Position numbers and translations under genes: made by a program
In this document: positions 11,894 to 31,068 of the stretch, piece by piece
Layout of the letters: each line of letters starts with the position of its first letter
Numbering within the stretch: the stretch's first letter is position 1
NCBI GenBank assembly: GCA_018816805.1
Contig: JAHIVE010000015.1
Coordinates: 31,104 to 95,103, forward strand
Length of the DNA: 64,000 nt
Source: Patescibacteria group bacterium
GTDB lineage: Bacteria; Patescibacteriota; Gracilibacteria; UBA1369; 2-02-FULL-48-14
Direction: 5' to 3'
The notes under the pieces: generated by a model
Databases searched by the model: none
Seen by the model: only the letters and a program-made list of their open reading frames with translations
What the model was told of the DNA's origin: nothing

Positions 11894-11922
11894 TTGACAA
11901 ATGTGGGTTTTTGGTTTAGAAT
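11894..11922 (+). promoter_or_regulatory. Sigma70-like promoter for the 11944-20572 operon
   Basis: TTGACA (11894-11899), a 17-nt spacer, then TAGAAT (11917-11922), 22 nt upstream of the ATG. Confidence 0.55.
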
Positions 11923-11943
11923 GGCGGCTCGTAATTTTTTCCT

Positions 11944-14900
11944 ATGTCTGAAATTGATGTACCTACTCCTGTCGAGTCTCAAGATGAGGCTCAACTCCCA
12001 ACGCTTAAATTTAAGAAGGTTTTTCAGTCAAAAGAACCGATAGCCGGGAATGCCAAAGATCTTATTGCTGCTGAAAAATGGGGGGAATATACTATTGTTT
12101 TGAGGAAGCCGATATTGTCACCACCGACTCCGATACCAGAACTTGGTGAAAATCCTAGAAATCTACCTAAGCAAGAGCCACTTATAATTATTGATGGTGA
12201 GGGGCGTGAGGTGGTTGATTTTGGATTGATTTCAGGTTTGGAAGTTACGGTTTCAATAAAAGAATATTGTACTTCTTTGAGGAAATCATATGTCTGCGAT
12301 GATGAATATGATGCTACTAAAGATGATATATATGTTAAAACACTCCCAAAGCATTTTCAGAAAAAGGCGCAGGAGGCAATAAATAAGGAAAATAGACATT
12401 GGATCGACGTGAATGATATTTTGGATATAACTTCCAAACTTAGTTCTGATAAAACAGAGATTTCATTATATATGGGTGGAAAATATGTGGTTCTTTTTGA
12501 TCCTTGTGATAAAGGGTGGATTGCATATTTAACTCAAAATGAAGCAGGCGTGAGTCAAATTCCCCGGAACTGGAAGCGTTTTGATGCCGGGGCATTTTAT
12601 GAGATCCCGGAAGAATTATCAGTTCATATCAATAAGCTGAAGGAAGAAACTAAAATAGAGGGCAATGTTGTGGAATTGAGTGGGGAATATGAAGTCAGGG
12701 TTGGAGGAACAAAACTTCAGATTAGACAGGGTCCCAATGTTGTTCATGAAGAAACTTTAGCTGAGGTTGGTGATAATGTTTGTGTGGACCCTTCAAACCC
12801 TTCAATGGTTTATTTTTGTAGAAGTGAAAATCCTGAAGAATTGTATGTGTTGGATATTAGTGAGTCTCTTCCCTGGACTTCCAGACAAGCGCGGTTCCCA
12901 AAACAATATTCGTCCATAAAGAATCTTGGTTTTCATCCTTCAGGGAAATTTTTGACATTTTTGGATGGAAAAAATTTGGTTTTACTGTCAAAAAGCACTT
13001 TGGAGGAGATTGGAAGAATTGAGGGAGGGGCTTTTGCCCAGTGGGATGAGCAAGGGCGCATGCGAACTTTAGATAGTAAGGGGCATTTTATTGTTGTTAA
13101 ATTCAATTTGGACAAAATTGACAACGCTATCCAAGCAAGAAGGGTGGCTGAACTTGCAAGAGGTGTTGATATTGAAGCTATGTTTGAAGGTGTACAAGGG
13201 CCTCAAAGTAATGAGAGTGCCGGTGAGGGTGATGGACAGGAAGATTTTAGTTATTTGGACGAATTTAAAGCAAAAGCGATTGCTGTTGCCAGAAAGAAGC
13301 TTAGTCGAGCGAATGATTTGACGGCTTTAGATGTGATTGGTGGACAAGTTAACGTACTTGAAACGCAACTTGCGGGACAAGGGTTGGATTCGGCTGCTGT
13401 GGCATACGTTAGTGGTGGTGTGATAGAAATGATTGAAAAAAGGAAAACTGAGCTTGCAGAACCTGTTGTACGAGAGGCTTTGGGGCGTGTTCGCGCTATG
13501 CTTGCTTCACTTTCTGTGAGGGCTATTTCAGAGATTCGGGAGGATTTGAGTGAGTTGGATGGGCTTTTGGGAAGTGTTGAGGTTGAGGTGAGGGATGAAG
13601 TTAGGGATGTTCGTGATGGTTTTAGGTTGGAAGTGGCGAGGTTTTTTGAGAAAGAGGCCGGGAAAATTAAATGCCAGGTGAATTCTATGGTTGAAAAGGC
13701 CCGGAATGATTTGGATGGTTTTGAGAGTAAAAGGGATTTTGATGAGTGGCTGCATGATATTTATCCCGCAATGAGGCGGAATTTGGGTGAACTTGAGGCG
13801 GATTGTCCGCTTGAGGCGACTGAGGCGCATGAGGCGATTACTTTGGCTAAAACAACACTGAGAGACCTTGCGGATCAATATGAAAAGAGGTTTGAGATGG
13901 AATATGCGGCTGTTCGTGAACGGGCGGCTGAGCATGTGAAGGCGTCTGCGGATGATTTAAAAAAAGATATTGCTCGCTTTTTGAAGGGTTTAAAACGGAA
14001 GGGATTTAAAAGTCGAACGGATGCTGAGCGTTATATAAATGAAAGTTCAGAGCGTGAGATGATTGAGGATGCAATTGGGGCGCTTGGTAGGCGGAATGAA
14101 GAATTGGCGAATTCGCTTTCCAGACAATTAAAGTCTGATTTGGCGCTTGCGGTTGATGCAATTGAAAGAGGAAAAGCTACAACTGTTGTGGAAAGTGGTG
14201 AACAGATGGTTGATTTGGGAGGAGTTGCTTTCCCTCGTTTTGAGGCGAAGGTAAAACGGAAAGAGATGCCAACTGTTACTCCGACTTTTGTTCGTGATCA
14301 GCGAACAGTTGGGCCGGGTGTTAAACCGGCGGACGTTTACGGGGATATTTGTTTGAGAGTGAAAGATGCGCATGGGAAAGTGAAAGTGATTCGGCTTTTT
14401 GAAGGCAGAAATGATGAGGACGAATGGCGAAATTCGGAGCTGACCGGAATTGAACTTAGAGGTGGCTCTGTAAAGTCTTCATATATGCAGCATGGTGATT
14501 TTGCAGCATTTAGAAAACAATTTTTGGCTTGGGGAACAGAGGATGCGCCCGGGGTGCTTCGTGTTCAGTATGAGGAGAAGCGTGAAGCTGTGAAAGAGTG
14601 TTATGCTCGTCGGCATAAAGTTGGTGAGCGTGGGACTGAGGATGTCCATTGGCAGCTTGAATATAGGCGACTTTTGGAGGAGTATGCGAATTTCTGCAGC
14701 GAAAATAATATTGCGCTTTTGAGGCAAGTGGACAGGCAGCTTGAGGCTGAATGTGCAGTTGATCCAAACGGAAAGGGTGTTGTGCCGGAATGGAAGTCGG
14801 ATTGGACTTCAGACAGTTTGACGGAGGAATATTTGGCGGATATGGCACGGAATTTGAATTTGCAAAGAACAAAGAAAGAAGGACTTTTAATGCTTGCGGG

Positions 14901-15882
14901 GCATGCTGGTACCGGTAAGGACGTTTTGGTCCAGATGTTCTGTAATTTAACTAACAGACCTTACGCCGGATTTAACTGTACAAAGTGGACAACTGAAGCT
15001 GATTTGGTTGAAGATGTGCAGCTTGAATCTGTTGATGGTTCGGTTAGGACCGTGAAAGTACCTTCAATTATTGCCAGAGCAATTCAAACCGATGGTTCGG
15101 TTGTGTATTTGAATGAGTTTAATGCTATGCCGCATACAGCGCAGCTTGCAATTCATTCGCTTTTGGATGCTAAGAGAATTTTAATTCCACCAACGAGTCC
15201 GGATAAACCGGTGAAAGCAGTTGATTCGGTTCTGTTTGTTGCTTCAATGAATGAAGATTATGAGGGAACTGAGGATCCAAACTTTGCAACAAAGAGTCGT
15301 ATGAGTTACACAAGAATTGGATATCCACCTTTGACCAGGCCGGCTGCTAAAGAAGATCCGAATCAGAATCCTTTGTTTGATTCTGCAGAGGCTCTGCGTA
15401 TTGCAAGATGGGTTTCTTCTTTAATTGATTTAACTTGGGAACCGCAGGCGGATAGAAATGCTTTTGTGAAGATGTGGGATAAGTATATAAACGGAACCGG
15501 AGATGGGCAAACCCCTACCCCGGAGCAGAAATTTGACCTTGATGTAATTCTTTCACTCGTGCAGTTTGGTGCGCATTTCAGGGATTCGTTTATTGCAAAA
15601 TTCAATAGGAGTCATGATAGATCCGCTAGAAATCTTCGCAAGAAATTGCCTGTGGAAGGTCCGCTTACAATGCGTGAAATGACTTCCGCTGCGTGGTATT
15701 TAAGTGACTGTATTTCAAGTGAAGAAAAACTTTCCGGCAAATTGAATCCGGAGGAAGTGGCTAAGATGCTTTTAACGAGATACTACATTGTTAAAACCAA
15801 GAGTGAGGCGGATCGCGATACTATGGAGCGGACGCTTGATACTGACGGCGTGTTTGCAATGCAAAAGCGTCTTGAGATTTAA
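11944..15882 (+). CDS. 1312-aa protein with a ~950-aa orphan N-terminal region fused to a C-terminal CbbQ/NorQ/GvpN-type (AAA_5, MoxR-clade) AAA+ module
   Basis: 'LAGHAGTGKD' (Walker A, 14899-14922). 'VVYLNEFNAMPHTAQLAIHSLLDAKRIL' (Walker B region, N-E at 15112-15117). 'LFVASMNE' (sensor 1). 'KSRM' (Arg). No signal peptide or TM segment. Confidence 0.75.
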   Translation: MSEIDVPTPVESQDEAQLPTLKFKKVFQSKEPIAGNAKDLIAAEKWGEYTIVLRKPILSPPTPIPELGENPRNLPKQEPLIIIDGEGREVVDFGLISGLEVTVSIKEYCTSLRKSYVCDDEYDATKDDIYVKTLPKHFQKKAQEAINKENRHWIDVNDILDITSKLSSDKTEISLYMGGKYVVLFDPCDKGWIAYLTQNEAGVSQIPRNWKRFDAGAFYEIPEELSVHINKLKEETKIEGNVVELSGEYEVRVGGTKLQIRQGPNVVHEETLAEVGDNVCVDPSNPSMVYFCRSENPEELYVLDISESLPWTSRQARFPKQYSSIKNLGFHPSGKFLTFLDGKNLVLLSKSTLEEIGRIEGGAFAQWDEQGRMRTLDSKGHFIVVKFNLDKIDNAIQARRVAELARGVDIEAMFEGVQGPQSNESAGEGDGQEDFSYLDEFKAKAIAVARKKLSRANDLTALDVIGGQVNVLETQLAGQGLDSAAVAYVSGGVIEMIEKRKTELAEPVVREALGRVRAMLASLSVRAISEIREDLSELDGLLGSVEVEVRDEVRDVRDGFRLEVARFFEKEAGKIKCQVNSMVEKARNDLDGFESKRDFDEWLHDIYPAMRRNLGELEADCPLEATEAHEAITLAKTTLRDLADQYEKRFEMEYAAVRERAAEHVKASADDLKKDIARFLKGLKRKGFKSRTDAERYINESSEREMIEDAIGALGRRNEELANSLSRQLKSDLALAVDAIERGKATTVVESGEQMVDLGGVAFPRFEAKVKRKEMPTVTPTFVRDQRTVGPGVKPADVYGDICLRVKDAHGKVKVIRLFEGRNDEDEWRNSELTGIELRGGSVKSSYMQHGDFAAFRKQFLAWGTEDAPGVLRVQYEEKREAVKECYARRHKVGERGTEDVHWQLEYRRLLEEYANFCSENNIALLRQVDRQLEAECAVDPNGKGVVPEWKSDWTSDSLTEEYLADMARNLNLQRTKKEGLLMLAGHAGTGKDVLVQMFCNLTNRPYAGFNCTKWTTEADLVEDVQLESVDGSVRTVKVPSIIARAIQTDGSVVYLNEFNAMPHTAQLAIHSLLDAKRILIPPTSPDKPVKAVDSVLFVASMNEDYEGTEDPNFATKSRMSYTRIGYPPLTRPAAKEDPNQNPLFDSAEALRIARWVSSLIDLTWEPQADRNAFVKMWDKYINGTGDGQTPTPEQKFDLDVILSLVQFGAHFRDSFIAKFNRSHDRSARNLRKKLPVEGPLTMREMTSAAWYLSDCISSEEKLSGKLNPEEVAKMLLTRYYIVKTKSEADRDTMERTLDTDGVFAMQKRLEI

Positions 15883-15899
15883 TTTTCTAACCTGGTAAA

Positions 15900-18800
15900 A
15901 TGGCAGAAATTGATCCCAGAAAAGGTGAGAAGATTTCAAGAGAACGACTGCGAGATGTTGTCGCAGTTTCAAGACAGGTAAGTGAAAGCGGGACAAAGGT
16001 TTATCCCGGAGACAGGTGGGCTTTGCATTACACAGAGGATACTGCGGCACGGCAGGAGAAACTTCAGGGCCTTATGGCCGGGAGATATTCAGCTGCGGAT
16101 GTGGCGGCCAGTTTGAAGCCTGATGCACTTTTGTATGATGCTTCTGATTTTGAACGTGAGGATGCGGGTGCGGTTCTGGGGCGGATTCAGGATGAGGTGA
16201 ATAGGATTGATTATTTTGATTATGAGCGGTTTGCGTCGTTTCTTTCACGGATGAGTGTGAGTGGAGTTCCGTTGGATGCTTTGCAGAGAATTTACAGCGG
16301 GATTCAGAAAAATCGAACTCGGAAACAGTTTCATAATGCGTATGGATGGACAGGGAAGAAGAGAGTTGAAGCGATTGTTCGCGCTGAAATGGAAGGACTT
16401 TGTGATCGGTTATCCGGAATGGATGATTGGAGTGCTGTTTGTGCTGCTTTGTCTGCTGATTTTGCGTGTGAGGGACTGGGTTTGATTCGGACAAATGAGC
16501 GTGATGCGATTGTTAGTGGGCTTGATACCGGACAGCGGAAAGTTTTTGAATCTGTGAGGGAGCATGTTCGGTCTTATGTTGAACGTGGGAGTGAGAGGGC
16601 TTTTGAGTCTATCATGGAAAGTTTGAAGGGAGAGGAGCCGCAAAAGGAGCCGTTTGAGCCGAGTGAGGAGATGCAAAAGCTTCAAGAGGAGCTTGAGGAT
16701 TACATTGATGATGTTGGGCCTCCGGGTTCTTCAGAAGATCCGGCTATTCCACCGGATGACTGTGATGAATATAATGATCCGGGTGAACCCGGGCAAAGTG
16801 GCTCGGAGAGTCGTGAAAAGGAAGCTTCTCAAGCGTTTTTTGAAATTGAACCGGCCGGGGTTAGTACAAAGCCGCTTGTTGGATATTACTGCAGCGGTCG
16901 GAAAAGTTATTATGATGTGCCGAGGAAAACTTGGAGCAAAAAGAAGCAATTAACTTCGTATTCCGGGGTTATTGCGGGTGACGAAAGATGGAAAATTTCC
17001 GGGACCATTGAGGGTGATGTGAAGGCGCTGCCAATTCCGAACGGGTATGCGTTGGATATGTCTTCACTTTCCGGCGGTGTTCAGGTTTTCAGAGATCAGA
17101 ATGGGTGTTTTTATGTGCATTCTTCCGTACGAAGTTCATTTTCTGTGGACTTTTTGAAGGATCCAAACATGCATGTGGGAATGCCAATTCAGGAAGATTT
17201 GGCGCAGATTTATAGTGGTTCCTTGTCCGGTGGAAGTGAGGCGGTTTTAAAGCAAATTCAGTCGCTTCCCTCCCCTGCTCAGAAAGCGGATTTGGTGAGG
17301 GAGCATATTTTGGGGTCGCATTTTTATCCGGGTGGTGGAGATTTGAAGGCGGCGCAGGCGCTGCAACATAAGCTAAGGAGCGAGTCGAGTGCTGTGAATT
17401 ATTTGCAAAACCTTGATGCCAGTGAATATTTGGAATGTTATTCTGCGAATACGCTTTTTGTGGCAATGATGAGGAAGGCCGGTGTTCAGGCAAGGCTTGT
17501 TGTTGGGCATATGTTGGATGGTTCAAATGTGCGGGACGGGAAGTCAGTGATTGATCAGTCGACCGGGCATGCTTGGTCTGAAATTTGGGATGGAAGTGCT
17601 TGGGTGCGCTATGATGCTACGCCAAAACCTAAGCCGGAGGATAAGGATCCATCGCAGGATTCTGGGGATTCCGGTGGTCAAGGAGAAATGGAAAATGCGG
17701 ATGATGGGGGTTCGCAAGAGGAAGATGGTCAGCCGCAGGATGGTGGTTCGCAAGAGAGTGGTGAGGCCGGTGATATGACAAAAGATGTTCAAGATCAAGT
17801 TGATCAGCGAGTTGAGGAAGTTGAATCTTCTTCATCTGATTCGTCTGAAGGTATGCCGGAGGCGAGTGATACTGAAATGAGTGAGGCGGAGGCTGGAATG
17901 GAAGAGGCCACGCAGGAGATGGAAGCTATGGAGGAGAAAAAACGGGAAATGGAAAAGCAGGTTAAACAAGTGGAGAAGTTTCAGGATTTGCAGGATTTGA
18001 AGGACCAGCTTGAGAATGAAGACTTGTTTGAAGACATGAAGGATTCAGTTGAGGATTTGATTGATAAAAAGGAAGAGCAGATGAAAGATGAGATTCGGGA
18101 TCGTTTGGAGGACTTGGAGGATGCCGGGTTTGTTGATGAAAAGCGTCGTGAGGAGTTGGAGGATAAATTGGATGAGCTTGATTTGAATGAGCTTGATAAT
18201 TTACTTGAGCAAATTGACAGGGAGAGTGCTTTGTATGAGAAATATGAGGAAATTTGTGAGGAAGTTATGCCTTATGTGGAGGAGTGGTATAGATACATTG
18301 CTGAAAAGTTGCCACGGAAACTTGAACTTGAGCTTGATGAGGAAACTTTGATGCGTCAGGGGAAATTGAATCGGCGCAGTGTGCATAGATATTCAAATTT
18401 GCTATTTGGGACGGTTTACAATCCAAGGGTTTACAGAGCGTCTGTGAAACCAAAATTTTTGGCTTCAATTGTTTTGGATGTTTCCGGATCAATGAGTGGA
18501 GAAAAGCTACAAAATGCGTTGAAGCTTTTGGTTTTTTATTGTGAGCTTTTTAATATGATCAGCGCGAAGTTTGGGTATATTCGGTTTTCAATAAAAATAT
18601 TTGCTGACGGTGTGTGGGAAATTAAGGATTTTGGTCAGGATTATGATTCGTCAACGCGTTATGACTTTATGGACGGAACGAGTTCGACCATAAAAGTGCG
18701 GCTTATGACTGCAGTGCAGGCCGGTGGTGGAACGAATATGCTTGAGGCAATTCAAAAATCGGCTCGGGATATGACTGAGGAAACTTGGGAATATCCGGAT

Positions 18801-19076
18801 TATGCGTCGGCTTTGAATTTTATTGGTGATGGTGGAGACACTTGCGGGAATACAGGTAGAATTCGGCAGTTTATTGAAACTAAGGATGAGGAAGACGGAT
18901 TTGGGAATCATATGCATTTTGCAACTTTCTTGGGTGATGAGGCGCAAAGACAAGTGCTGGCGGATATTTTTGGGGATGAGCACACGTCCGTTGCAAGTGA
19001 CTTTGAAGAGTTGATTGGAGTTAGCATGGAGCAGTTTGGTGATCAGATTGAGGAATATGTTGATAGTATGAGTTAG
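15900..19076 (+). CDS. 1058-aa protein with a transglutaminase-like Cys-His-Asp core, a long D/E-rich region and a C-terminal VWA domain with a complete MIDAS
   Basis: 'ECYSANTLFVAMMRKAGVQARLVVGH' (Cys codon 17436-17438). 'GHAWSEIWDGSAWVRYDATP' (His 17568, Asp 17613). An acidic stretch spans about 17622-18270. MIDAS motifs are 'DVSGSMSG' (18477), 'GGGTN' and 'GDGGDT'. Confidence 0.8.
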   Translation: MAEIDPRKGEKISRERLRDVVAVSRQVSESGTKVYPGDRWALHYTEDTAARQEKLQGLMAGRYSAADVAASLKPDALLYDASDFEREDAGAVLGRIQDEVNRIDYFDYERFASFLSRMSVSGVPLDALQRIYSGIQKNRTRKQFHNAYGWTGKKRVEAIVRAEMEGLCDRLSGMDDWSAVCAALSADFACEGLGLIRTNERDAIVSGLDTGQRKVFESVREHVRSYVERGSERAFESIMESLKGEEPQKEPFEPSEEMQKLQEELEDYIDDVGPPGSSEDPAIPPDDCDEYNDPGEPGQSGSESREKEASQAFFEIEPAGVSTKPLVGYYCSGRKSYYDVPRKTWSKKKQLTSYSGVIAGDERWKISGTIEGDVKALPIPNGYALDMSSLSGGVQVFRDQNGCFYVHSSVRSSFSVDFLKDPNMHVGMPIQEDLAQIYSGSLSGGSEAVLKQIQSLPSPAQKADLVREHILGSHFYPGGGDLKAAQALQHKLRSESSAVNYLQNLDASEYLECYSANTLFVAMMRKAGVQARLVVGHMLDGSNVRDGKSVIDQSTGHAWSEIWDGSAWVRYDATPKPKPEDKDPSQDSGDSGGQGEMENADDGGSQEEDGQPQDGGSQESGEAGDMTKDVQDQVDQRVEEVESSSSDSSEGMPEASDTEMSEAEAGMEEATQEMEAMEEKKREMEKQVKQVEKFQDLQDLKDQLENEDLFEDMKDSVEDLIDKKEEQMKDEIRDRLEDLEDAGFVDEKRREELEDKLDELDLNELDNLLEQIDRESALYEKYEEICEEVMPYVEEWYRYIAEKLPRKLELELDEETLMRQGKLNRRSVHRYSNLLFGTVYNPRVYRASVKPKFLASIVLDVSGSMSGEKLQNALKLLVFYCELFNMISAKFGYIRFSIKIFADGVWEIKDFGQDYDSSTRYDFMDGTSSTIKVRLMTAVQAGGGTNMLEAIQKSARDMTEETWEYPDYASALNFIGDGGDTCGNTGRIRQFIETKDEEDGFGNHMHFATFLGDEAQRQVLADIFGDEHTSVASDFEELIGVSMEQFGDQIEEYVDSMS

Positions 19077-19159
19077 GGCTTTTGTTTAGCGATTTTTCTT
19101 GAGTTCGTTGGTTTTTTCCTATAAAAACACGGCGAACTTCATGCTACTTCACGCAAAAA

Positions 19160-20572
19160 ATGGCAGATGAAAGGATAGATCAGTCAAATCAAGAGGCTGT
19201 GCCCACGGGTACGGGGGCTGGGTCATATGTTGAGAGAGGAACTGAAGTGATTTTAGATGCTGTACAGGATATGATTCGGCGGGCAAAAAATGCTGTTTTG
19301 GGGCCGGGTTTTCATGAGGCACCGACGGAAATTCTTGAAGATGACAAAGTTTCTTCTATGGATCTAGAGGTGGAGTCTGGATGTGATTCTTCAGGTGCTG
19401 TTTCTGGGCCGTCTTCGGGCGGGTTGACTCCAGCTACCGTGGAGGAAATACCAACGGATGGAGAAGAGGTAGTGGAATTGCCCGTTTTTGTATCTTCAGA
19501 TGGAAGTGATGGCACTCCTCCTGCGCCACATCAAGCTGGAGCACATTTGGTTCGGGATGAATATGCAAAGAAGAAAAATTTGTTTAGGTTTGGAAGAGGA
19601 GAAACTGATGCTTCAGAGCATGATAAAAAGGATTATCCTGTTGGACAAAGTAGACGAGAGGTTCACGCAAGAATGAGGCTTATGATTGAAATGTTGGAGC
19701 ATAATTATGGGTCAGAGGCAGTGGAAAGGGTTGGTGTAATAAGGTTGCAAGAATATGTGGATCCAATAACATTTTATATACATGATGACGACCCGATTTT
19801 TGCTGACATGCCGGTAATTTTTGAAATTAAAAAGAAATTGGTGAGTGGCGGTTTAAGCAATGAAGAGGTTGATTACACCGGTGTTGTGGAAACATTTCAG
19901 TATGAGTTTGTAGCCGGCTATGTTGGTAAGCTTTTTAATGATGTGATAGAGCGGATTGATAACATTGTTACTGCATATAAAAGAGATGGAATTGCATATG
20001 TTGCGACTGATTTTGGATATGTTACTCATGAATTTCTGCGTGATTTGGAACATGTTTGTAAACGAATTGTCTCAGATAGCGAGCTTCAAGATGATATTGT
20101 TTTTATTCAGGAAAATTATCAGTCAGTTGGGCGTGAAACGGAGGCTAGCAAGAGGCTTAGGGAGGAACTTTTGGATATTGAAGCTTCACCTGAAAAGTTG
20201 GAAGCGGTTGAGTTTGTAGAAAAAGTAAAGGCGCAAGTTGATGCGTATGAGGAATTTGAGAGTCGTTTAAATCTTAAAAGTATGACTCCGGATGATGCTA
20301 GAGCATTAGGGATTAGGCAGATGCTTTTGTTGAAACTTGTTATTGGTCATATGAACAAACATATTGCCGGGCCAATAATGAAGCTTTTTAATGAAATTGA
20401 ACTTGAGGAAGGAGGTACCGGAAGAGCAATTGATTATTATCGTGAACAAGAACCTGTAGTGGTTTTGGACTATTGTTTAAAAAGTTTTGTGCAACTTTTG
20501 AGAATACAAAAAACCTTAAAGCAATTGCGCGGGCTAATTATTGGGCCGGATTCACTTAGAAGGATTGTCTAG
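19160..20572 (+). CDS. Hypothetical protein (470 aa), third gene of the AAA+/VWA operon
   Basis: Same strand, 83 nt downstream of the VWA gene. The N-terminal ~130 aa look acidic and disordered, followed by a helical region. I recognise no motif. Confidence 0.6.
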   Translation: MADERIDQSNQEAVPTGTGAGSYVERGTEVILDAVQDMIRRAKNAVLGPGFHEAPTEILEDDKVSSMDLEVESGCDSSGAVSGPSSGGLTPATVEEIPTDGEEVVELPVFVSSDGSDGTPPAPHQAGAHLVRDEYAKKKNLFRFGRGETDASEHDKKDYPVGQSRREVHARMRLMIEMLEHNYGSEAVERVGVIRLQEYVDPITFYIHDDDPIFADMPVIFEIKKKLVSGGLSNEEVDYTGVVETFQYEFVAGYVGKLFNDVIERIDNIVTAYKRDGIAYVATDFGYVTHEFLRDLEHVCKRIVSDSELQDDIVFIQENYQSVGRETEASKRLREELLDIEASPEKLEAVEFVEKVKAQVDAYEEFESRLNLKSMTPDDARALGIRQMLLLKLVIGHMNKHIAGPIMKLFNEIELEEGGTGRAIDYYREQEPVVVLDYCLKSFVQLLRIQKTLKQLRGLIIGPDSLRRIV

Positions 20573-20755
20573 TTCCTCCGTGATTCTCTGAAAGGCAGCT
20601 TGAACGTTTTTTCTTGCGTCTATATCAAATAGACCTGCTGCTTCAGCTATTGCGGCAAATCTTGCCTCATCTGCTGGGGTTACTACTATTTCAGCTTGTT
20701 TTGCTGCTTCTGACATTAGGTGAGTGGTTAATGCGACTTCATAATGCACTTCCAA
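20552..20755 (-). CDS. Possible small helical protein (67 aa)
   Basis: The ORF has a plausible composition. Its 3' end overlaps the convergent 470-aa gene by 21 nt. There is no motif support. Confidence 0.3.
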   Translation of the reverse strand: MEVHYEVALTTHLMSEAAKQAEIVVTPADEARFAAIAEAAGLFDIDARKNVQAAFQRITEELDNPSK

Positions 20756-20952: not shown

Positions 20953-22734
20953 ATGAATAAAGAAGACAAACTTCATGCAATGAGGCACAGCGCGGCGCAT
21001 GTTTTGGCGCAGGCGGTTTTAGATATGTTTCCCGAGGCTAAACTTGGAATTGGTCCTGTAATTGCCGACGGGTTTTATTATGACTTTGAATTGCCCAGGA
21101 CTCTGATCCCGGAGGATCTTTCAATTTTGGAAAAGAAAATGAAGGAAATAATGAAAGCGAAACAGAGGTTTGAGCGTAAAGTTGAGCCGGCTGAAAAGAC
21201 TTTTGAGTTTTTGAAGGAAGCGAGGCAACCGTTTAAGGAAGAGCTTGCGCGGGAGTTTGCTGCGGAAGGCCAGGAGATTTCATTTTATGAAAATGTGGAC
21301 AAAAACGGGAAGGTAAAGTTTGTGGATATGTGTGAGGGGCCGCATGCGGAGGATACCGGGAAGATTGGAGCTGTGAAACTCATGAAAATTGCCGGAGCTT
21401 ATTGGCGCGGGGATGAGAAAAATCCCCAATTGCAGAGAATTTATGGGGCTTGTTTTGAGACTAAGGAGGATTTGCAGGCACATTTGCAAATGCTTGAAGA
21501 GGCTGAGAAGCGGGATCATAGGAAACTTGGGAGGGAGCTTGAGATTTATATGATGAGTGAGGAAGTTGGGGCCGGGTTGCCGCTTTGGATGCCGAACGGT
21601 GCTGTGATTGCGGAGGAACTTGAAAAATTGGCTAAAGAGGTTGAATACAGCGGAGGGTATGACAGAGTTCGGACGCCGCACATTACAAAGGGCGAGCTAT
21701 ATGAAAAATCCGGTCACCTTCCCTACTACGCGGAAAGTATGTATCCGCCAATGGAAATGGACAATGAGAAATACTATTTGAAGCCAATGAATTGTCCTCA
21801 TCATCATTTGATTTTTGGCGGGAAAATGCGGTCGTACCGGGAGATGCCGGTTAGGTTTGCGGAGTATGGACATTGCTACCGGTTTGAGGACAGCGGGGCA
21901 CTTTTTGGGCTTATGAGGGTTAGGTCAATGTGTATGAATGATGCGCATATTTACTGCACTGAAGAGCAATTTCAGGATGAGTTTTTAGCAGTTATTGATA
22001 TTTACAAAAAATATTTTGAGATTTTCGGGATTGAAAAGTACGAGATGCGGCTTTCTTTGCATGACAAAGAGGGTCTGGGTAAAAAGTATGTGGATGAGGA
22101 GAAGCTTTGGATTCAGACGGAAGAGGATGTTCGAAGAGTCATGAAAAAGTCCGGGGTTAAGTTTAGTGAGGCCGAGGGCGAAGCGGCGTTTTACGGGCCC
22201 AAGATTGATGTTGAAATTTGGTCGGCGATTGGGCGTGAATTTACACTGGCGACGAATCAGCTGGATTTTGCGGTGCCAAAGAGGTTTGGGCTTACTTATG
22301 TGGACAAGGACGGAAAAGATAAAACTCCGCTTTGTATTCACAGAGCACCTTTGTCCACTCATGAGCGGTTTATTGGCTTTTTGATTGAGCATTTTGCGGG
22401 GGCTTTCCCAACTTGGCTGGCGCCTGTGCAAGTAACTGTATTGCCTGTTTCTGATAATTTTATGGATTATGCTCAGGAAGTTGCCGCTGAGCTTAAGGCT
22501 GAAGGGGTGAGAGTTAAAGTGGATGATAATAGCGAGAGTTTGGGGAAGAAGATACGCGGGGCGGAGAAAATGAAAATTCCTTGGATGCTGGTGATTGGGG
22601 AAAAGGAGGTGGCTGAAAAAATGGTTGCCGCTCGGAATTATCACAGCAAAAAACAGGAGGTTTACGGGAAAGATGAGTTTAAGAAAATGGTGCTTAAGGA
22701 AATTTGCGAAAGAAGTTTGCCTGCTAAGTCTTAA
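20953..22734 (+). CDS. thrS: Threonyl-tRNA synthetase, short form without an N-terminal TGS domain
   Basis: 'HSAAHVLAQAV', 'HRKLGRELEIY' and class II core motifs ('FRFEDSGALFGLMRVR'), with a C-terminal anticodon-binding region. 593 aa. Confidence 0.95.
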   Translation: MNKEDKLHAMRHSAAHVLAQAVLDMFPEAKLGIGPVIADGFYYDFELPRTLIPEDLSILEKKMKEIMKAKQRFERKVEPAEKTFEFLKEARQPFKEELAREFAAEGQEISFYENVDKNGKVKFVDMCEGPHAEDTGKIGAVKLMKIAGAYWRGDEKNPQLQRIYGACFETKEDLQAHLQMLEEAEKRDHRKLGRELEIYMMSEEVGAGLPLWMPNGAVIAEELEKLAKEVEYSGGYDRVRTPHITKGELYEKSGHLPYYAESMYPPMEMDNEKYYLKPMNCPHHHLIFGGKMRSYREMPVRFAEYGHCYRFEDSGALFGLMRVRSMCMNDAHIYCTEEQFQDEFLAVIDIYKKYFEIFGIEKYEMRLSLHDKEGLGKKYVDEEKLWIQTEEDVRRVMKKSGVKFSEAEGEAAFYGPKIDVEIWSAIGREFTLATNQLDFAVPKRFGLTYVDKDGKDKTPLCIHRAPLSTHERFIGFLIEHFAGAFPTWLAPVQVTVLPVSDNFMDYAQEVAAELKAEGVRVKVDDNSESLGKKIRGAEKMKIPWMLVIGEKEVAEKMVAARNYHSKKQEVYGKDEFKKMVLKEICERSLPAKS

Positions 22735-25700
22735 GCAGCTTGTTGCTCTTCTCCGGAGCCAAACCAAGAGTTGTTATTTGCCGGGTTTTGTATGCGTTCA
22801 GCATGATCTGGACCAACGTACCATAATGTTTCACCCCAAGGTGGAGGCGTTACTCCGGTGGTTTTCCATGCTTCGTTTTTGTACTTCACTTGTGCTTTTT
22901 TAAGTTTATCCATGTTTTCTTTGGCTCCGTTTTTTGCTTGGTCATCACGGACTTTTTGTAGCATTCGTGAGGCGATTTCCGGATTTTCACTAAATAAGAA
23001 ACGAGTATAAGCACCGGCTGCTTTGTATAGGTCATCTACCGTGTTTATGCTGTCTGTTGCATCTCCAAATATCTTTTTGCCTTCGTATTTTTTCTTTAGA
23101 TTTTCAACAAATTGTTTTACTTGCTCGTTGCTCTTTATGGTGCCGTTGAATAATGGATCAAAGAAATCCGGGTCAAGTTCACGGACGTAAGAGCGGCAAG
23201 TTTCCATGTTTTTGCGAACTGTGTAGTCATTTCCGCGTTTAAACATACTTGTGTATGCTCCAACTGCACGAGGCACTGATTCGTATGCACCGGAACTTCC
23301 CCATCTGAAGAAGGTTTGGTTTTTGTACATGCGTTCTGAGGTGATTGCATCCATGGTGACAAATTGGGAAACGAATCTTACTAGGTCGTCTCTTGTATCA
23401 TCCTTTTTGTCGTATTCGTTGAAAGCAGCGCTGTCCATAAATTGCAAGTGTGCGACGGTCCAGTTTTGCATACCGGTCATAGGGAGTGTGTATCCATTTG
23501 ACTGTTTACGGAGGATTTCTGTTGCGGTGGAGTCGTTGACGTAGGCTAAGAAAGCTGTCGAGTCGTCATGGTCCAGTGTTTGTCCCCCGGTAAACACTTT
23601 ATCAATACGAGTTTGAACACGCTGCAGACGCATTGCCTGTGTCTCAAACCAGTTTAAATACATTGGGCCGGGTTCGTTGTCTTCCCAGTTGAGTGCTGCA
23701 ACCTCACGAATATCTTTTAAGTTTGGTTTTTCACCTCTGGCTGTACTTGAACCAAAATAGTCAATTACAGGATAGTTGTTGATACGTTTTGAGTTAATGG
23801 CGGATCCGCGGTCGGCGCTTAGGAGGCCGGTTGCGATCCCTTGGATGAGATAATAAAGTTTAGCTTCTCCAGTCATTTTTCCGTAGATAATAGAATAATC
23901 GACAGCTTCTTCGTATTCGTGAGGGTCGACTTTTGCTGCTTCACCTTTTTCCTTGTAGCGCTTCAATAAGCCTTTCAAGTGTCTTTGAAGACCTCCAGAA
24001 TATTCGGCGATTCTATTCATTCTTTCTTCATTTTTTTGTTTGCCGCTTTCATAATTTGAGTTGTTTGTGTTGTACCATTCATTAAAGGTGTCGTAGTCCC
24101 AAAGCACACCCACTACTTTTTGGAGGCGGCTCATGAAGCGGCTCATGTCTAATGTTTCTACTGAAATGTCTTCGTCAAAAACAATTTGGTCTTGGAATTT
24201 GTTAAATTGTTTTAGAAGACCGGGGTCATCCCAGCGGATTCTTCCTCTGTCAGCCAACAAATACAAACAAGCTTTCAATTCGTCCTGGTTGTTTGTTGTC
24301 CTAGCGACATCTTGTATTTGCCAGGCGTCTTTGTTCCCGTAAATGTCCTTATAGTGGTTAACTTCCTCTTGCTCCGCTTGTTCTTTCATTTTGTCGAACT
24401 CGTTTGGAAGTGTTTGTACGTAAGGAAGATTTTCTAGTGGTTTTAATACCTTGAATACGGTTTTACCTAAACGCAGATTTTGGTCACGATTATATCTTCT
24501 GGTTGCCCATTCTTTGATTATTTCTCCGGCACGTTTTACGTTTTGAAGTGAAATGAATTGCCATTCGTATCCTGAACCTGGTTCTGGAATATTTTTATAT
24601 AATTCTATGTAACTGGAAATTTTATTTCTTGCGATTTTGATTTCATACATCCCGTTATCTCTGGTCTCATCTAATAATTTGTCGTATTTTTCAAAGGCTT
24701 CGTGGAGTCCATTAGCAAAGCTGATTGTGTCTCCTTTGTCCATTGCTCCGCTTTTTAGGGCATTCAGTTGGAGTCTGAGACCTTGTTGTATTTGGAATTT
24801 GGGCTTGTCACCGGATTTGAAGAGAATTTTTTCTCCTTTTTCGTTCCTGAAATATTCTTCGTCACTAAAAATGTCATCATATATGTTGGAAATGTTGCCC
24901 CAATCTCTAATAATGTTTTTTTGTTTCTCAAGTGTTTCAAGTTCATTCTTTTTATAATCTTCTTCAATGTAGGAATTGTTTTTAATTATTCTTTCAAGTT
25001 CTTCAAGTTCTGAAAGCGTTGCTGCTGCTTCTTGTGACAACTCTTTAGCTTTTGGATCAATATCATTTTTCTTCTTTTCCACAAGCGCTTCGTATTCTCG
25101 TTCCAGCTGATCAATTGAGATTTCGTTGGACCTTGCTTCTTTTGCGTAAGCGTATTGGTCTTCAAGTTTTTTAATTGTTTGATAGACAGCAATGTATTCT
25201 TGGAATGGTTCGTCGTCCGTTAAATTGTTTTTTATTTGTTTGAGAACGGCATCAATTGTGTTTAGGTAATTGTCTTTGAGGTCTTCAAAGTGTTTTGGAG
25301 GCTTAGTTTCCCATCTTTTTTTAAGAAATTTCAAACGTTTGTTGAAGTCCTTGCGCATTTGTTTATAAAGCTCTTTCATTGCTCTATCACGTTGTTTTTC
25401 CATGTCAGCGATTATCTGATCAAGAGCTGCCAACACGTCGTCGCGGGTTTGTAATTTTAGATTGCGAATAGATTTTGGGCTCATATTGAATCCACTTTTA
25501 AAGCGACCGGCATCCATGGCTTGATACATGGATGCGAACTCTTCCTGAAGTCTGTTTATTGGGCCAATCCATCTTAAATCTTCCATTATGTCATCCGGAA
25601 CGTCGGCTTTTTGAAGACGTACTTTCATTTTGTTGAAAGATTTTACGTAGCCATCAAAACCGTGATATTCCGTAAACATTGCATTCCATGTTCTTTCAAT

Positions 25701-26297
25701 ACTTTCACGGTCACCTGACTCAAAGTAGACCGCTTCCGGGCCCGGAATTATTGTTGGCACTTTTTCTTTTGTATTGAAGGCTTCTGAAGTTGGTGGAACT
25801 GAAAGTTCTTCAACGTTGCCTCCTCCAGTTCTTTTCTTTGCCGGGGCTAGAAATTCTGGTGTGACTAATCCACGGTTTCTTGCTTGATCATCCACAATAA
25901 GAAGGAAATAATTGCCTTCTTGCGGTGAGCCGGCCTTTCCTCTGTATCCTCTTAATCTGTGGGTTCCTATGGTTAGTTCCCAGTTCAGATAGTCATATGC
26001 TGCATTAAGTTGTTGATCTGTGGGTGCGTTTTGGGTGATTTCAGTTCCGGGTTGAATCCATGCTTCAATTTCAGTGAGCGGGATTTTTCTGTTGTTTGCG
26101 GAAAGTATGTCTCTTTCCACTTTTAGTTCAACAATGTCGTTGTTTTTTGTTAAAAGCTCATTCTGTCCAAGTGTAGGACCGGATTCATGAGTTCCACCGG
26201 TTCCCGTTGGGCCGCCGTTTGCAAAGACAAGTGATCCTCCCCCTAGAATGAGGTTTTTTTCTGAGTCCTGCTGATTGTGGTATCTGTGTGTTCGCAT
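22731..26297 (-). CDS. Orphan 1188-aa soluble protein with a coiled-coil-rich middle region
   Basis: Uninterrupted ORF with its own upstream promoter. I see no Walker motif, TM segment or signal peptide. Confidence 0.7.
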   Translation of the reverse strand: MRTHRYHNQQDSEKNLILGGGSLVFANGGPTGTGGTHESGPTLGQNELLTKNNDIVELKVERDILSANNRKIPLTEIEAWIQPGTEITQNAPTDQQLNAAYDYLNWELTIGTHRLRGYRGKAGSPQEGNYFLLIVDDQARNRGLVTPEFLAPAKKRTGGGNVEELSVPPTSEAFNTKEKVPTIIPGPEAVYFESGDRESIERTWNAMFTEYHGFDGYVKSFNKMKVRLQKADVPDDIMEDLRWIGPINRLQEEFASMYQAMDAGRFKSGFNMSPKSIRNLKLQTRDDVLAALDQIIADMEKQRDRAMKELYKQMRKDFNKRLKFLKKRWETKPPKHFEDLKDNYLNTIDAVLKQIKNNLTDDEPFQEYIAVYQTIKKLEDQYAYAKEARSNEISIDQLEREYEALVEKKKNDIDPKAKELSQEAAATLSELEELERIIKNNSYIEEDYKKNELETLEKQKNIIRDWGNISNIYDDIFSDEEYFRNEKGEKILFKSGDKPKFQIQQGLRLQLNALKSGAMDKGDTISFANGLHEAFEKYDKLLDETRDNGMYEIKIARNKISSYIELYKNIPEPGSGYEWQFISLQNVKRAGEIIKEWATRRYNRDQNLRLGKTVFKVLKPLENLPYVQTLPNEFDKMKEQAEQEEVNHYKDIYGNKDAWQIQDVARTTNNQDELKACLYLLADRGRIRWDDPGLLKQFNKFQDQIVFDEDISVETLDMSRFMSRLQKVVGVLWDYDTFNEWYNTNNSNYESGKQKNEERMNRIAEYSGGLQRHLKGLLKRYKEKGEAAKVDPHEYEEAVDYSIIYGKMTGEAKLYYLIQGIATGLLSADRGSAINSKRINNYPVIDYFGSSTARGEKPNLKDIREVAALNWEDNEPGPMYLNWFETQAMRLQRVQTRIDKVFTGGQTLDHDDSTAFLAYVNDSTATEILRKQSNGYTLPMTGMQNWTVAHLQFMDSAAFNEYDKKDDTRDDLVRFVSQFVTMDAITSERMYKNQTFFRWGSSGAYESVPRAVGAYTSMFKRGNDYTVRKNMETCRSYVRELDPDFFDPLFNGTIKSNEQVKQFVENLKKKYEGKKIFGDATDSINTVDDLYKAAGAYTRFLFSENPEIASRMLQKVRDDQAKNGAKENMDKLKKAQVKYKNEAWKTTGVTPPPWGETLWYVGPDHAERIQNPANNNSWFGSGEEQQAA

Positions 26298-26422
26298 ATC
26301 AGGTGGGTGATAAGGCTTCCTTTTTGGAAGCGAGAGAGAGGAGTAGCTTAGCTATTTAAGCTAAGCGGACTCTTCCCTCACAATCACCCTGATTGGATCA
26401 CAGATTTGATCGTAGGAGGGTA

Positions 26423-26450
26423 ATTGTATCACGTTGTGTTAATTTGTCAA
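26423..26450 (-). promoter_or_regulatory. Sigma70-like promoter for the 1188-aa gene
   Basis: On the minus strand: TTGACA (26450-26445), a 16-nt spacer, then TACAAT (26428-26423). A leader of about 120 nt follows. Confidence 0.55.
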
Positions 26451-26471
26451 GTTTGGGTTAATTTTGGGTTA

Positions 26472-31060: not shown

Positions 31061-31068
31061 GTGGCGAT

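What the first reader, a model, noticed from the sequence alone, without database searches (positions are those of the whole stretch)
11894..20572. Three-gene operon: giant CbbQ/NorQ-type AAA+ fusion, transglutaminase / D/E-rich / MIDAS-VWA protein, and a 470-aa orphan
Seen directly:
- A near-consensus promoter (TTGACA-17-TAGAAT) precedes three same-strand ORFs of 1312, 1058 and 470 aa. The gaps are 17 and 83 nt, and together they cover ~8.6 kb.
- The last ~330 aa of gene 1 align by eye to the CbbQ/NorQ/GvpN ATPase core. Compare CbbQ 'ICYLDEVVEAR..VIHPLTDHRRIL' with 'VVYLNEFNAMPHTAQLAIHSLLDAKRIL' here. The ~950 aa before it contain nothing I recognise: a beta-rich first third, then a Glu/Arg-rich helical middle.
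- Gene 2 carries a transglutaminase-like Cys/His/Asp core (C513, H557, D572), ~200 aa of D/E-rich sequence, and a VWA domain with all MIDAS residues.
- None of the three has a signal peptide or TM segment.

Established knowledge: CbbQ-CbbO and NorQ-NorD are AAA+/VWA remodeller pairs. MoxR-type AAA+ plus VWA/DUF58 plus transglutaminase-like proteins form a recurrent bacterial neighbourhood of unresolved function. vWA-MoxR modules have also been proposed as cores of NTP-dependent conflict systems.

Inference: this is an enlarged, fused, cytoplasmic variant of that theme with an unknown client or effector. The transglutaminase/protease-like core could be the output. For a compact genome, 8.6 kb is a large investment.
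Basis: partly seen in the sequence, partly recalled or inferred. Interest (0 to 1): 0.85.

Follow-up and report, generated by a model that had tools for sequence, protein, structure and literature searches.

The report
Giant ATPase–VWA/transglutaminase pair of Patescibacteria
Two very large adjacent genes, found so far only in the tiny-genome Patescibacteria (CPR), encode an uncharacterised ATP-driven protein-remodelling motor and a partner with a metal-dependent "grip" domain and usually a transglutaminase-like enzyme; the third gene is a species-specific orphan.

Summary
The three ORFs, the TTGACA-17-TAGAAT promoter, the AAA_5 core, the Cys/His/Asp transglutaminase triad, the D/E-rich stretch and a complete MIDAS-VWA are all present at the stated coordinates.

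The conserved unit is two genes, not three.
- Gene 1 (about 1,300 aa, AAA_5 at the C-terminus) and gene 2 (about 1,050 aa) are adjacent, 3-80 nt apart, in all 15 loci examined. Every taxonomically credible label among related records is Patescibacteria.
- The surrounding genes vary and are mostly housekeeping.
- Gene 3 has no homologue in any library tried or in 13 related loci.

By sequence profile and by fold, the ATPase module is closest to CbbQ/NorQ. It is not a member of that family: it is five times longer, has no CbbQ_C domain, and has an invariant altered Mg2+ site (Walker A GK-D, Walker B N-E).

Gene 1's first 930 aa match only 108 cluster representatives among 1.84 billion, and most of the full-length ones have the same length.

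The AlphaFold model of gene 2 shows six parts in order: a helical N-domain, a TgpA-like beta-sandwich plus transglutaminase core, acidic disorder, long helices, and a VWA. One divergent subfamily lacks the transglutaminase, so the core is AAA+ plus N-domain/linker/VWA.

Best reading: a lineage-restricted MoxR-class AAA+/VWA remodeller whose client is unknown. It is a new variant of a known kind.

The parts
11894..11922 (+). Sigma-70-like promoter TTGACA-17-TAGAAT upstream of gene 1
   Evidence: Read directly. It is the best-scoring site (11 of 12) in the 11-23 kb scan. This is a consensus match only, and function was not tested.
11944..15882 (+). Gene 1: 1312-aa ATPase subunit with a family-specific N-terminal 950 aa and a C-terminal AAA_5 module
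   Evidence: ORF. Orthologues at 23-40% identity stand next to a gene 2 orthologue in every locus examined.
11944..13233 (+). Gene 1 aa 1-430: beta-rich N-terminal region of unknown fold, the least conserved part
   Evidence: No hit in Pfam or PDB profiles. Mean per-column frequency of the commonest residue is 0.15-0.43. The AlphaFold model is below pLDDT 50 here because no alignment could be supplied. The self-repeat test was not significant.
13249..14169 (+). Gene 1 aa 436-742: long charged helices (20% D/E, 17% K/R)
   Evidence: AlphaFold secondary structure with pLDDT about 60-90. Composition.
14203..14394 (+). Gene 1 aa 754-817: small conserved beta domain ahead of the ATPase
   Evidence: Strands in the model. 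Invariant residues in the 9-sequence alignment include G752, G759, F763, P764, R817, L818, E820 and G821.
14815..15879 (+). Gene 1 aa 958-1312: AAA+ module (large subdomain plus lid), closest to CbbQ/NorQ
   Evidence: AAA_5 E 1.7e-17. Profile against PDB: CbbQ 1.1e-11 and NorQ 1.6e-9, with nothing else significant. Foldseek: CbbQ2 1e-8 and NorQ 1.8e-8.
14899..14922 (+). Walker A GHAGTGKD (aa 986-993), with Asp where Ser/Thr is canonical
   Evidence: GK-D in all 64 full-length family members; one pattern hit was spurious, and that protein's true motif (GHAGTGKD) is seen in its printed sequence. CbbQ has GK-S at the aligned position.
15100..15117 (+). Walker B VVYLNE (aa 1053-1058), with Asn where Asp is canonical and the catalytic Glu kept
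   Evidence: N-E in all 64 members: the pattern found it in 62, and it was read by eye in one of the two it missed, P0104. It aligns to the D-E of CbbQ.
15900..19076 (+). Gene 2: 1058-aa partner subunit
   Evidence: ORF. Identity is 46-49% to the seven orthologues and 27-46% to the other loci. It lies directly downstream of gene 1 in all loci. AlphaFold model mean pLDDT 81.
15900..16649 (+). Gene 2 aa 1-250: helical N-terminal domain, no known family
   Evidence: Model helices with pLDDT about 75-89. The domain is retained in the transglutaminase-less variant (E 2e-6). No Pfam hit.
16650..16835 (+). Gene 2 aa 251-312: acidic, proline-rich linker with the conserved motif PPGSxEDPAIPPxDxDEY
   Evidence: 33% D/E and 14% Pro. 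P274, P275, D280, I283, P284, P285, D287, D289 and E290 are invariant in 8 sequences.
16836..17639 (+). Gene 2 aa 313-580: beta-sandwich plus transglutaminase-like core (C513 at 17436, H557 at 17568, D572 at 17613)
   Evidence: Transglut_core in 37 of 37 homologues. The triad is invariant. Foldseek: TgpA periplasmic domain 6g4h, E 6.5e-9 over 287 columns.
17640..18314 (+). Gene 2 aa 581-805: disordered acidic segment (581-655) followed by long, 37% D/E helices (656-805)
   Evidence: pLDDT is below 50 for 587-593 and 607-650. Helices span 657-803. Composition.
18315..19073 (+). Gene 2 aa 806-1058: VWA domain with complete MIDAS (D860-x-S862-x-S864 at 18477-18491; T945; D977)
   Evidence: Foldseek probability 1.0 to Rea1/MDN1 MIDAS, integrin I-domains and phage CobT-like VWA proteins. 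VWA_2 in 34 of 37 homologues. MIDAS residues are at least 90% conserved.
19160..20572 (+). Gene 3: 470-aa orphan ORF, possibly co-transcribed here but not part of the conserved module
   Evidence: No hit in Pfam, NCBIfam, PADLOC, PHROGs or PDB. No relative in 13 related loci. Identical copies occur only on two other contigs with the same arrangement.
20673..20695 (+). Terminator-like hairpin after gene 3
   Evidence: Pattern scan. This is a consensus match only.

Best explanation
Genes 1 and 2 encode the two subunits of a Patescibacteria-restricted MoxR-class AAA+/VWA protein-remodelling machine.

Shown:
- Gene 1 has a single CbbQ/NorQ-like AAA+ module with Walker A Lys, Walker B Glu, sensor-1 Asn and an Arg finger all conserved.
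- Gene 2 has a VWA domain with a complete MIDAS at the end of a long acidic and helical tether. In most members it also has a TgpA-like transglutaminase core with an invariant Cys-His-Asp triad.
- The two genes are always adjacent.

Inferred by analogy with NorQ-NorD, CbbQ-CbbO and midasin:
- Gene 1 assembles through its AAA+ module into a hexameric ring.
- The VWA domain of gene 2 docks on that ring.
- The MIDAS metal captures an acidic side chain of a client protein.
- ATP turnover pulls or twists gene 2's tether to remodel the client.
- Where the transglutaminase domain is present, the client is presented to it or released from it for cross-linking, deamidation or cleavage.
- The fast-evolving 430-aa N-terminus of gene 1 is the likeliest client- or partner-recognition part.

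The client is not encoded next to the pair. Gene 3 is a lineage-specific neighbour with no demonstrated link.
For: AAA+ identity.
- Pfam AAA_5, E 1.7e-17.
- Profile against PDB finds only CbbQ and NorQ at significance, 1.1e-11 to 2.4e-9.
- Foldseek: CbbQ2 and NorQ, 1e-8 to 1e-7.
- Catalytic residues are conserved across 65 sequences.

Partner.
- VWA fold with MIDAS conserved.
- The top VWA hits include Rea1/MDN1 MIDAS and phage CobT-like proteins.
- The AAA+ of gene 1 hits the CobS-like PHROG 249 at 1.3e-17.
- Transglutaminase triad invariant in 37 of 37; fold match to TgpA at 6.5e-9.

Functional coupling.
- The pair is adjacent on the same strand, with gaps of 3-80 nt, in 15 of 15 loci. Gene 1 identity to the window across these loci falls as low as 23%.
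- No other gene is conserved around it in the 10 loci clustered.

Mechanistic precedent. The NorD VWA sits on the NorQ ring with a finger in the pore, and NorQ remodels a NorD linker (PMC13036017).

No TM segment or signal sequence is seen.
Against: - No experiment and no complex prediction was possible, so hexamerisation and VWA docking are inferred.
- The Mg2+ site is non-canonical (GK-D and N-E). Hydrolysis could be slow or switch-like rather than motor-like.
- No client is identified, and unlike CbbQO and NorQD no client gene is linked.
- The N-terminal 430 aa of gene 1 remain structurally uninterpreted.
- A transglutaminase-less subfamily exists, so the role of the enzyme domain in the core mechanism is uncertain.
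- One homologue (L003) lacks the DxSxS motif.
Confidence: 0.7

Rival explanations
1. It is an NTP-dependent conflict (anti-phage or anti-host) system of the vWA-MoxR kind. The variable N-terminus of gene 1 senses an invader, and the transglutaminase-like thiol peptidase of gene 2 is the effector.
For: vWA-MoxR cores with peptidase effectors, rarely transglutaminase-like ones, are described as conflict systems (PMC7159879). The gene 1 N-terminus evolves fastest. The family is small, with 108 clusters.
Against: No significant PADLOC hit; the best is E 0.003 in the coiled-coil regions. Neighbours are mostly housekeeping genes and differ in every locus: uvrA, recF, thrS, the ribosomal protein operon, infB/rbfA-like genes and aminoacyl-tRNA synthetases. 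There is no third VMAP-like component or conserved effector gene. Architecture and length are uniform, and gene 2 is highly conserved at 46-49% identity, unlike diversifying defence genes.
Confidence: 0.12
2. It is a functional analogue, or a distant relative, of midasin/Rea1. The AAA_5 motor has a helical 'linker', and a separate D/E-rich-MIDAS tail strips assembly factors from a large housekeeping complex such as the ribosome.
For: The same order of parts is present: AAA_5, then a D/E-rich segment, then a MIDAS-VWA. Rea1/MDN1 MIDAS structures are among the top VWA fold hits, with the longest alignments at about 270 columns. Dynein heavy chains appear among the fold hits for gene 1. Neighbourhoods are housekeeping, including a ribosomal operon in L009.
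Against: There is one AAA+ module per chain, not six. The profile search finds CbbQ and NorQ but no midasin or dynein at E<=1. The dynein fold alignments have rmsd of 18-77 A and TM-scores of 0.07 or less, which makes them uninformative. No UBL-domain client is known in bacteria. Acidic linkers before a VWA also occur in CobT and BchD.
Confidence: 0.08
3. It is a metal or cofactor insertase of the CobS-CobT, BchI-BchD or NorQ-NorD type that serves a metalloenzyme.
For: The nearest sequence and structure relatives are NorQ, CbbQ and the CobS-like PHROG 249. The C-terminal half of gene 2 resembles phage CobT-like proteins.
Against: No chelatase third subunit (CobN/BchH) or metalloenzyme client is encoded nearby in any locus. 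From my own knowledge, not tested here: Patescibacteria generally lack cobalamin, chlorophyll and denitrification pathways. The extra 950-aa N-terminus and the transglutaminase have no counterpart in chelatases.
Confidence: 0.05
4. Gene 3 is a functional third component, either client or adaptor, of the system in this organism.
For: Same strand, an 83-nt gap with no terminator-like site, and a terminator-like hairpin only after gene 3. The arrangement is identical in two other assemblies of the same organism.
Against: Gene 3 is absent from 13 related loci, where tRNAs, rbfA/infB-like genes, a PIF1 helicase or unrelated genes follow gene 2. It has no detectable homologue or domain.
Confidence: 0.15

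Closest known systems
NorQ-NorD (nitric oxide reductase maturation) and CbbQ-CbbO (Rubisco activase)
   Same: AAA_5-type MoxR-class ATPase encoded next to a partner built as N-domain, linker and C-terminal VWA with MIDAS. They are the only significant PDB relatives of the ATPase by profile and the best compact fold matches.
   Different: The ATPase is 1312 aa against about 270 aa. It has no CbbQ_C domain. Walker A is GK-D and Walker B is N-E instead of GK-S/T and D-E. The partner carries a transglutaminase core and about 220 aa of acidic linker. No norCB or Rubisco client gene lies nearby. The family is restricted to Patescibacteria.
MoxR - DUF58 - TgpA-type transglutaminase operons
   Same: They combine a MoxR-class ATPase, a VWA-like protein and a transglutaminase-like protein. 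The beta-sandwich plus transglutaminase core of gene 2 superposes on the TgpA periplasmic domain (6g4h, E 6.5e-9).
   Different: Here the transglutaminase and VWA are fused in one cytoplasmic polypeptide with no TM segment. The ATPase is AAA_5, not AAA_3. No DUF58 is present.
Midasin / Rea1 (eukaryotic pre-60S remodeller)
   Same: It has AAA_5-type ATPase modules, a long helical region, a D/E-rich segment and a terminal MIDAS domain. Rea1/MDN1 MIDAS structures are among the top VWA fold hits.
   Different: Midasin is a single chain with six AAA+ modules. Here there is one module per chain and the tail is a separate protein. There is no sequence-level link to midasin.
CobS-CobT / BchI-BchD chelatase motors and phage CobS/CobT-like pairs
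   Same: AAA+ plus a partner with an acidic linker and a VWA. PHROG 249 (CobS-like) hits the ATPase at 1.3e-17. Phage CobT-like proteins match the gene 2 C-terminal half.
   Different: No CobT or CobS Pfam match, no chelatase third subunit, and extra N-terminal and transglutaminase domains.
vWA-MoxR-VMAP ternary conflict systems (Kaur et al. 2020, PMC7159879)
   Same: A MoxR-class ATPase plus a vWA protein, sometimes with a transglutaminase-like peptidase.
   Different: No third VMAP component and no defence-island context. The peptidase-like domain is fused to the vWA protein rather than to a VMAP. No significant PADLOC match.

Membership tests
AAA+ ATPases, MoxR class (AAA_5 / CbbQ-NorQ branch) | P-loop AAA+ core with Walker A Lys, Walker B Glu, sensor-1 and Arg finger | tested here: met
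   AAA_5 E 1.7e-17. K992, E1058, N1103 and R1119 are at least 90% conserved in 65 sequences. Caveat: Walker A is GK-D and Walker B is N-E.
AAA+ ATPases, MoxR class (AAA_5 / CbbQ-NorQ branch) | Helix-2 insert and pre-sensor-1 beta-hairpin typical of the clade | tested here: inconclusive
   The model has a beta-hairpin at aa 1025-1038 between Walker A and B, and the segment 1071-1096 aligns to the CbbQ pre-sensor-1 region. pLDDT is below 50 for 1023-1039, and no structural superposition was inspected.
CbbQ/NorQ family proper | Stand-alone protein of about 260-380 aa with a CbbQ_C lid domain | tested here: not met
   1312 aa. No CbbQ_C hit at E<=0.1. No NCBIfam CbbQ or NorQ model hit.
CbbQ/NorQ family proper | Encoded beside its client (Rubisco/carboxysome genes or norCB) and a CbbO/NorD partner | tested here: not met
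   No such genes in any of the loci. The partner is a different architecture.
VWA domain with MIDAS | Rossmann-like VWA fold | tested here: met
   Foldseek probability 1.0 to many I-domains and MIDAS domains. VWA_2 in 34 of 37 homologues. The window protein alone is below Pfam's cut-off (19.2 against 27 bits).
VWA domain with MIDAS | DxSxS ... T ... D metal-site residues | tested here: met
   D860, S862, S864, T945 and D977 are at least 90% conserved. They are also present in the transglutaminase-less variant.
Transglutaminase-like superfamily (Transglut_core) | Papain-like core with a Cys-His-Asp triad | tested here: met
   PF01841 E 6e-12, above cut-off, and present in 37 of 37 homologues. 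C513, H557 and D572 are invariant. Fold match to TgpA. Catalytic activity was not tested.
Midasin/Rea1 | Six concatenated AAA+ modules in one chain | tested here: not met
   A single AAA_5 match per protein in all members checked.
Midasin/Rea1 | D/E-rich region followed by a C-terminal MIDAS domain | tested here: met
   Gene 2 aa 581-805 are 32-37% D/E, followed by the VWA/MIDAS at 806-1058. This lies on a separate polypeptide.
vWA-MoxR conflict systems (VMAP ternary systems) | A third VMAP gene with effector domains; defence-island or multicellular-bacteria context | tested here: not met
   Only genes 1 and 2 are conserved. Neighbours are housekeeping genes. PADLOC shows only weak coiled-coil matches at E 0.003 or worse.
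Cobaltochelatase / Mg-chelatase motors (CobS-CobT, BchI-BchD) | Association with a CobN/BchH-type large subunit and a tetrapyrrole pathway | tested here: not met
   None in the window or in any related locus.

The most novel reading that the evidence does not exclude
This may be a Patescibacteria-specific, split midasin-like machine. In this reading, a roughly 0.9-MDa ring of gene 1 subunits has a dynein/midasin-style helical lever. It drives a detachable D/E-rich-MIDAS tail (gene 2) that carries its own transglutaminase or protease active site, and it acts on a core cellular assembly such as the ribosome, pilus or envelope machinery of these reduced symbionts. The invariant swap in the Mg2+ site (Walker A Ser/Thr to Asp, Walker B Asp to Asn) would then define a previously unrecognised way of building an AAA+ active site.
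Probability: 0.1. Interest if true: 0.85.

Novelty: new variant of a known kind. Interest (0 to 1): 0.55.

Why it matters
Patescibacteria genomes are about 1 Mb; one homologue sits on a 949-kb contig. These organisms nevertheless keep a 7.1-kb gene pair across many of their lineages. That suggests an important activity specific to this poorly understood lifestyle.

The pair would also extend the AAA+/VWA remodeller theme (NorQD, CbbQO, chelatases, midasin) in three ways:
- the VWA partner carries an enzyme active site;
- the motor has a 950-aa extension found nowhere else;
- the nucleotide-Mg2+ site has an invariant, apparently compensatory pair of substitutions.

Gene 2 already gives a confident model, and the gene 1 family now has more than 60 full-length sequences. 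Structural and biochemical tests are therefore practical.

Tried and rejected
Searches that returned little or nothing.
- The search for homologous proteins with full-length gene 1 returned only the query itself, because the candidate list was swamped.
- A profile of the C-terminal 385 aa returned only fragments. No deep alignment was therefore admissible for the gene 1 N-terminus in structure prediction.
- Both metagenome scans, with gene 3 and with gene 2, found nothing. The tool chose poorly conserved peptides as patterns.
- A look-up of a near-identical strain's ThrS was not on record.

Gene 1 N-terminus.
- AlphaFold on gene 1 aa 1-1200 gave pLDDT below 50 for aa 1-430, so the fold is unknown.
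- Pfam and PDB profile searches of aa 1-930 gave only noise. Flg_hook was hit in 6 of 9 members at a best E of 3e-4 and was not pursued.
- A self-HMM comparison for propeller-like repeats was not significant, with probability 1.9%. I do not call the region a beta-propeller.

Hits I discount.
- Dynein heavy-chain fold hits were rejected as evidence of homology: rmsd 18-77 A and TM-scores of 0.07 or less.
- PADLOC hits to LeoA, MkoC, LmuB and JetC fall in coiled-coil regions at E 0.003 or worse and were rejected.
- The 1508-aa protein upstream in L013 is not a gene 1 paralogue.

Full report
**What is at the coordinates.** Three same-strand ORFs occupy 11944-15882 (1312 aa), 15900-19076 (1058 aa) and 19160-20572 (470 aa), with gaps of 17 and 83 nt. 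TTGACA-17-TAGAAT starts at 11894 and is the best promoter-like site in the 11-23 kb region. A terminator-like hairpin follows gene 3 at 20673-20695, and none separates genes 2 and 3. The flanking genes are housekeeping: uvrA, a PrsW-like protease, an unknown 194-aa ORF and recF upstream on the minus strand, and thrS downstream.

**Gene 1.**
- Pfam finds one domain, AAA_5 at aa 982-1120, E 1.7e-17.
- A nine-sequence profile of the last 385 aa finds only CbbQ (1.1e-11), CbbQ2 (1.3e-9) and NorQ (1.6e-9) at significance. RavA, McrB, midasin and dynein are not found at E<=1.
- The AlphaFold model is confident only from about aa 436 onward, because an alignment could be supplied only for the C-terminal part. 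It shows long helices at 436-742, a small beta domain at 754-817, more helices, and an AAA+ fold at 958-1200.
- Foldseek returns CbbQ2 and NorQ as compact matches. Dynein heavy chains also appear, but with rmsd of 18-77 A, which I treat as uninformative.
- The first 930 aa match nothing in Pfam, NCBIfam, PADLOC, PHROGs or PDB.
- An exhaustive phmmer search of these 930 aa against 1.84 billion cluster representatives gives only 108 hits, 70 of them at E<=1e-30. Most are full-length proteins of about 1,200-1,400 aa, and the rest are mainly fragments. All seven distant members scanned carry a single AAA_5 match and no other significant domain.
- The N-terminal extension is therefore unique to one narrow family of uniform architecture. 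The few members with source names are called 'AAA family ATPase [Candidatus Peregrinibacteria]', 'MoxR-like ATPase' or hypothetical.

**An unusual active site.** All 64 full-length members have Walker A GxxGxGK-D, with Asp where Ser/Thr is canonical. All have Walker B hhhhN-E, with Asn where Asp is canonical. CbbQ has K-S and D-E at the aligned positions. Walker A Lys, Walker B Glu, sensor-1 N1103 and R1119 are conserved. I read this as an intact but re-wired Mg2+ site. Whether it hydrolyses ATP quickly is untested.

**Gene 2.**
- Transglut_core covers aa 482-573 (E 6e-12), and C513, H557 and D572 are invariant in 37 sequences.
- The VWA is sub-threshold in this protein. It is matched in 34 of 37 homologues, and its MIDAS residues (D860, S862, S864, T945, D977) are conserved.
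- The AlphaFold model (mean pLDDT 81) resolves these parts in order:
  - a helical N-domain (1-250);
  - an acidic, proline-rich linker with the conserved PPGSxEDPAIPPxDxDEY motif (251-312);
  - a beta-sandwich (313-420) and the transglutaminase core (440-580);
  - a disordered acidic stretch (587-650);
  - long helices that are 37% D/E (657-803);
  - the VWA (807-1058).
- Foldseek matches the sandwich plus transglutaminase to the periplasmic domain of P. aeruginosa TgpA (E 6.5e-9 over 287 columns). It matches the VWA to Rea1/MDN1 MIDAS, integrin I-domains and archaeal ArnAB.
- Against viral models the best hits are phage VWA and CobT-like proteins. This fits the hit of gene 1's ATPase to the CobS-like PHROG 249.
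- None of the three proteins has a TM-like hydrophobic window.

**Conservation and context.**
- A scan of one genome per species found seven loci. Five are labelled Patescibacteria (Paceibacteria, Parcubacteria, Taylorbacteria, Peribacteria) or simply 'bacterium'. Two are labelled proteobacterial but carry loci very similar to the others, so they are probably mis-binned.
- In all seven loci, a gene 2 orthologue (46-49% identity) follows a gene 1 orthologue (34-40%) by about 3-35 nt.
- The same holds for Roizmanbacteria and another MAG. It also holds for the most divergent members I could look up: Peregrinibacteria L012, L013, L015, L014 and a JGI contig.
- Clustering all ORFs of ten loci shows that only genes 1 and 2 are shared.
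- Neighbours differ each time and are ordinary genes: ribosomal proteins and rpoA, tRNAs, rbfA/infB-like genes, aminoacyl-tRNA synthetases, a PIF1-type helicase, sortase, PBP and transporters.
- No client gene and no defence genes recur.
- One locus (L005) has two tandem gene 1 paralogues ahead of one gene 2.

**The transglutaminase is not universal.**
- Next to the divergent gene 1 homologue P0163 (L014), the partner is 886 aa.
- It aligns to the window's gene 2 over the N-domain (E 2e-6) and over the charged helices plus VWA (E 3e-27, MIDAS intact).
- It has no sandwich or transglutaminase segment and no Transglut_core hit.
- P0137's partner (922 aa) also has no Pfam family on record.
- The minimal conserved machine is therefore the AAA+ plus an N-domain/linker/VWA partner, the same plan as NorD and CbbO. 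The enzyme domain is an insertion present in most members.

**Gene 3.**
- It has no domain or homologue in any library.
- No relative was found in a metagenome pattern scan.
- No tblastn hit occurs in 13 related loci.
- Identical copies occur only on two short contigs with the same gene order.
- It may be co-transcribed here, but it is not part of the conserved system.

**Mechanism (inference).** In NorQ-NorD, the VWA sits on the concave face of the NorQ hexamer with a finger in the pore, and ATP turnover remodels a NorD linker (PMC13036017). By analogy I propose the following:
- Gene 1 forms a ring through its AAA+ module.
- Gene 2 docks by its VWA. A conserved insertion at aa 910-930 is a candidate finger.
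- The MIDAS binds an acidic residue of a client.
- Force is transmitted along the acidic and helical tether to the N-domain and transglutaminase part.
- The variable gene 1 N-terminus is the best candidate for target recognition.

The client is unknown. The housekeeping, non-mobile-looking contexts and the strong conservation of gene 2 favour a cellular maintenance role over defence, though only weakly.

**Comparison with known systems.** The pair works like, and is related to, the MoxR-class AAA+/VWA pairs. It fails membership tests for:
- CbbQ/NorQ proper (size, CbbQ_C, Walker motifs, client linkage);
- midasin (six AAA+ modules in one chain);
- vWA-MoxR-VMAP conflict systems (no third component, no defence context; PMC7159879);
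- chelatases (no CobN/BchH).

Literature searches combining Patescibacteria or CPR with MoxR, vWA, AAA or transglutaminase found no description of this family.

**Verdict.**
- It is a new, lineage-restricted variant of a known kind of machine, with a family-specific 950-aa extension, a fused enzyme domain and an unusual active-site signature.
- Interest is moderate to good, because the function and the client remain open.

Noticed in passing
window 14899-14922 and 15100-15117 (gene 1 aa 986-993, 1053-1058): There is an invariant paired change in the nucleotide-Mg2+ site. Walker A is GK-D instead of GK-S/T, and Walker B is N-E instead of D-E, in all 64 full-length family members. It looks compensatory.
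   Followed up: partly
L014:4271-6928: A divergent subfamily has an 886-aa partner protein. It keeps the N-domain, charged helices and MIDAS-VWA but lacks the beta-sandwich and transglutaminase core.
   Followed up: yes
L005:4855-8814 and L005:9220-13215: Two tandem gene 1 paralogues precede a single gene 2 in a Peribacteria MAG. This hints at hetero-oligomeric rings.
   Followed up: no
L003:13533-16652: The gene 2 orthologue of Parcubacteria GW2011_GWF2_45_11 lacks the 10 residues DVSGSMAGEK, which contain the MIDAS DxSxS motif. This is either an assembly error or loss of the metal site.
   Followed up: no
window 22731-31129, minus strand: Four consecutive ORFs of 1188, 639, 386 and 526 aa have no Pfam match. 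The first also has no NCBIfam or PHROG match. Its end overlaps the end of thrS by 4 nt, and the two genes converge.
   Followed up: partly
window 1-64000: GC skew is positive across the whole window apart from one 2-kb bin near zero (24001-26000, -0.012). It is 0.25-0.39 over plus-strand genes and mostly positive over minus-strand genes, and the cumulative skew rises almost throughout. This suggests one replichore plus a purine-rich coding bias.
   Followed up: no
L002 and L007: Two MAGs labelled Gammaproteobacteria and Methyloversatilis carry loci whose proteins are very similar to those of the Patescibacteria loci. These contigs are probably mis-binned.
   Followed up: no
P0086 (1680 aa homologue of gene 1): It has an extra N-terminal region of roughly 380-450 aa made of repeated units resembling 'FYDELFW...' ahead of the normal architecture. 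Pfam sees only AAA_5.
   Followed up: partly
L013:119-4642: A 1508-aa protein with no Pfam family lies directly upstream of the most divergent gene 1-gene 2 pair. It is not a gene 1 paralogue by BLASTP.
   Followed up: partly
window 14191-14400 region (gene 1 aa ~750-820) in homologues: Six of nine gene 1 N-terminal sequences give weak Flg_hook (FliK C-terminal domain) matches, with a best E of 3e-4. The location within the protein was not checked.
   Followed up: no
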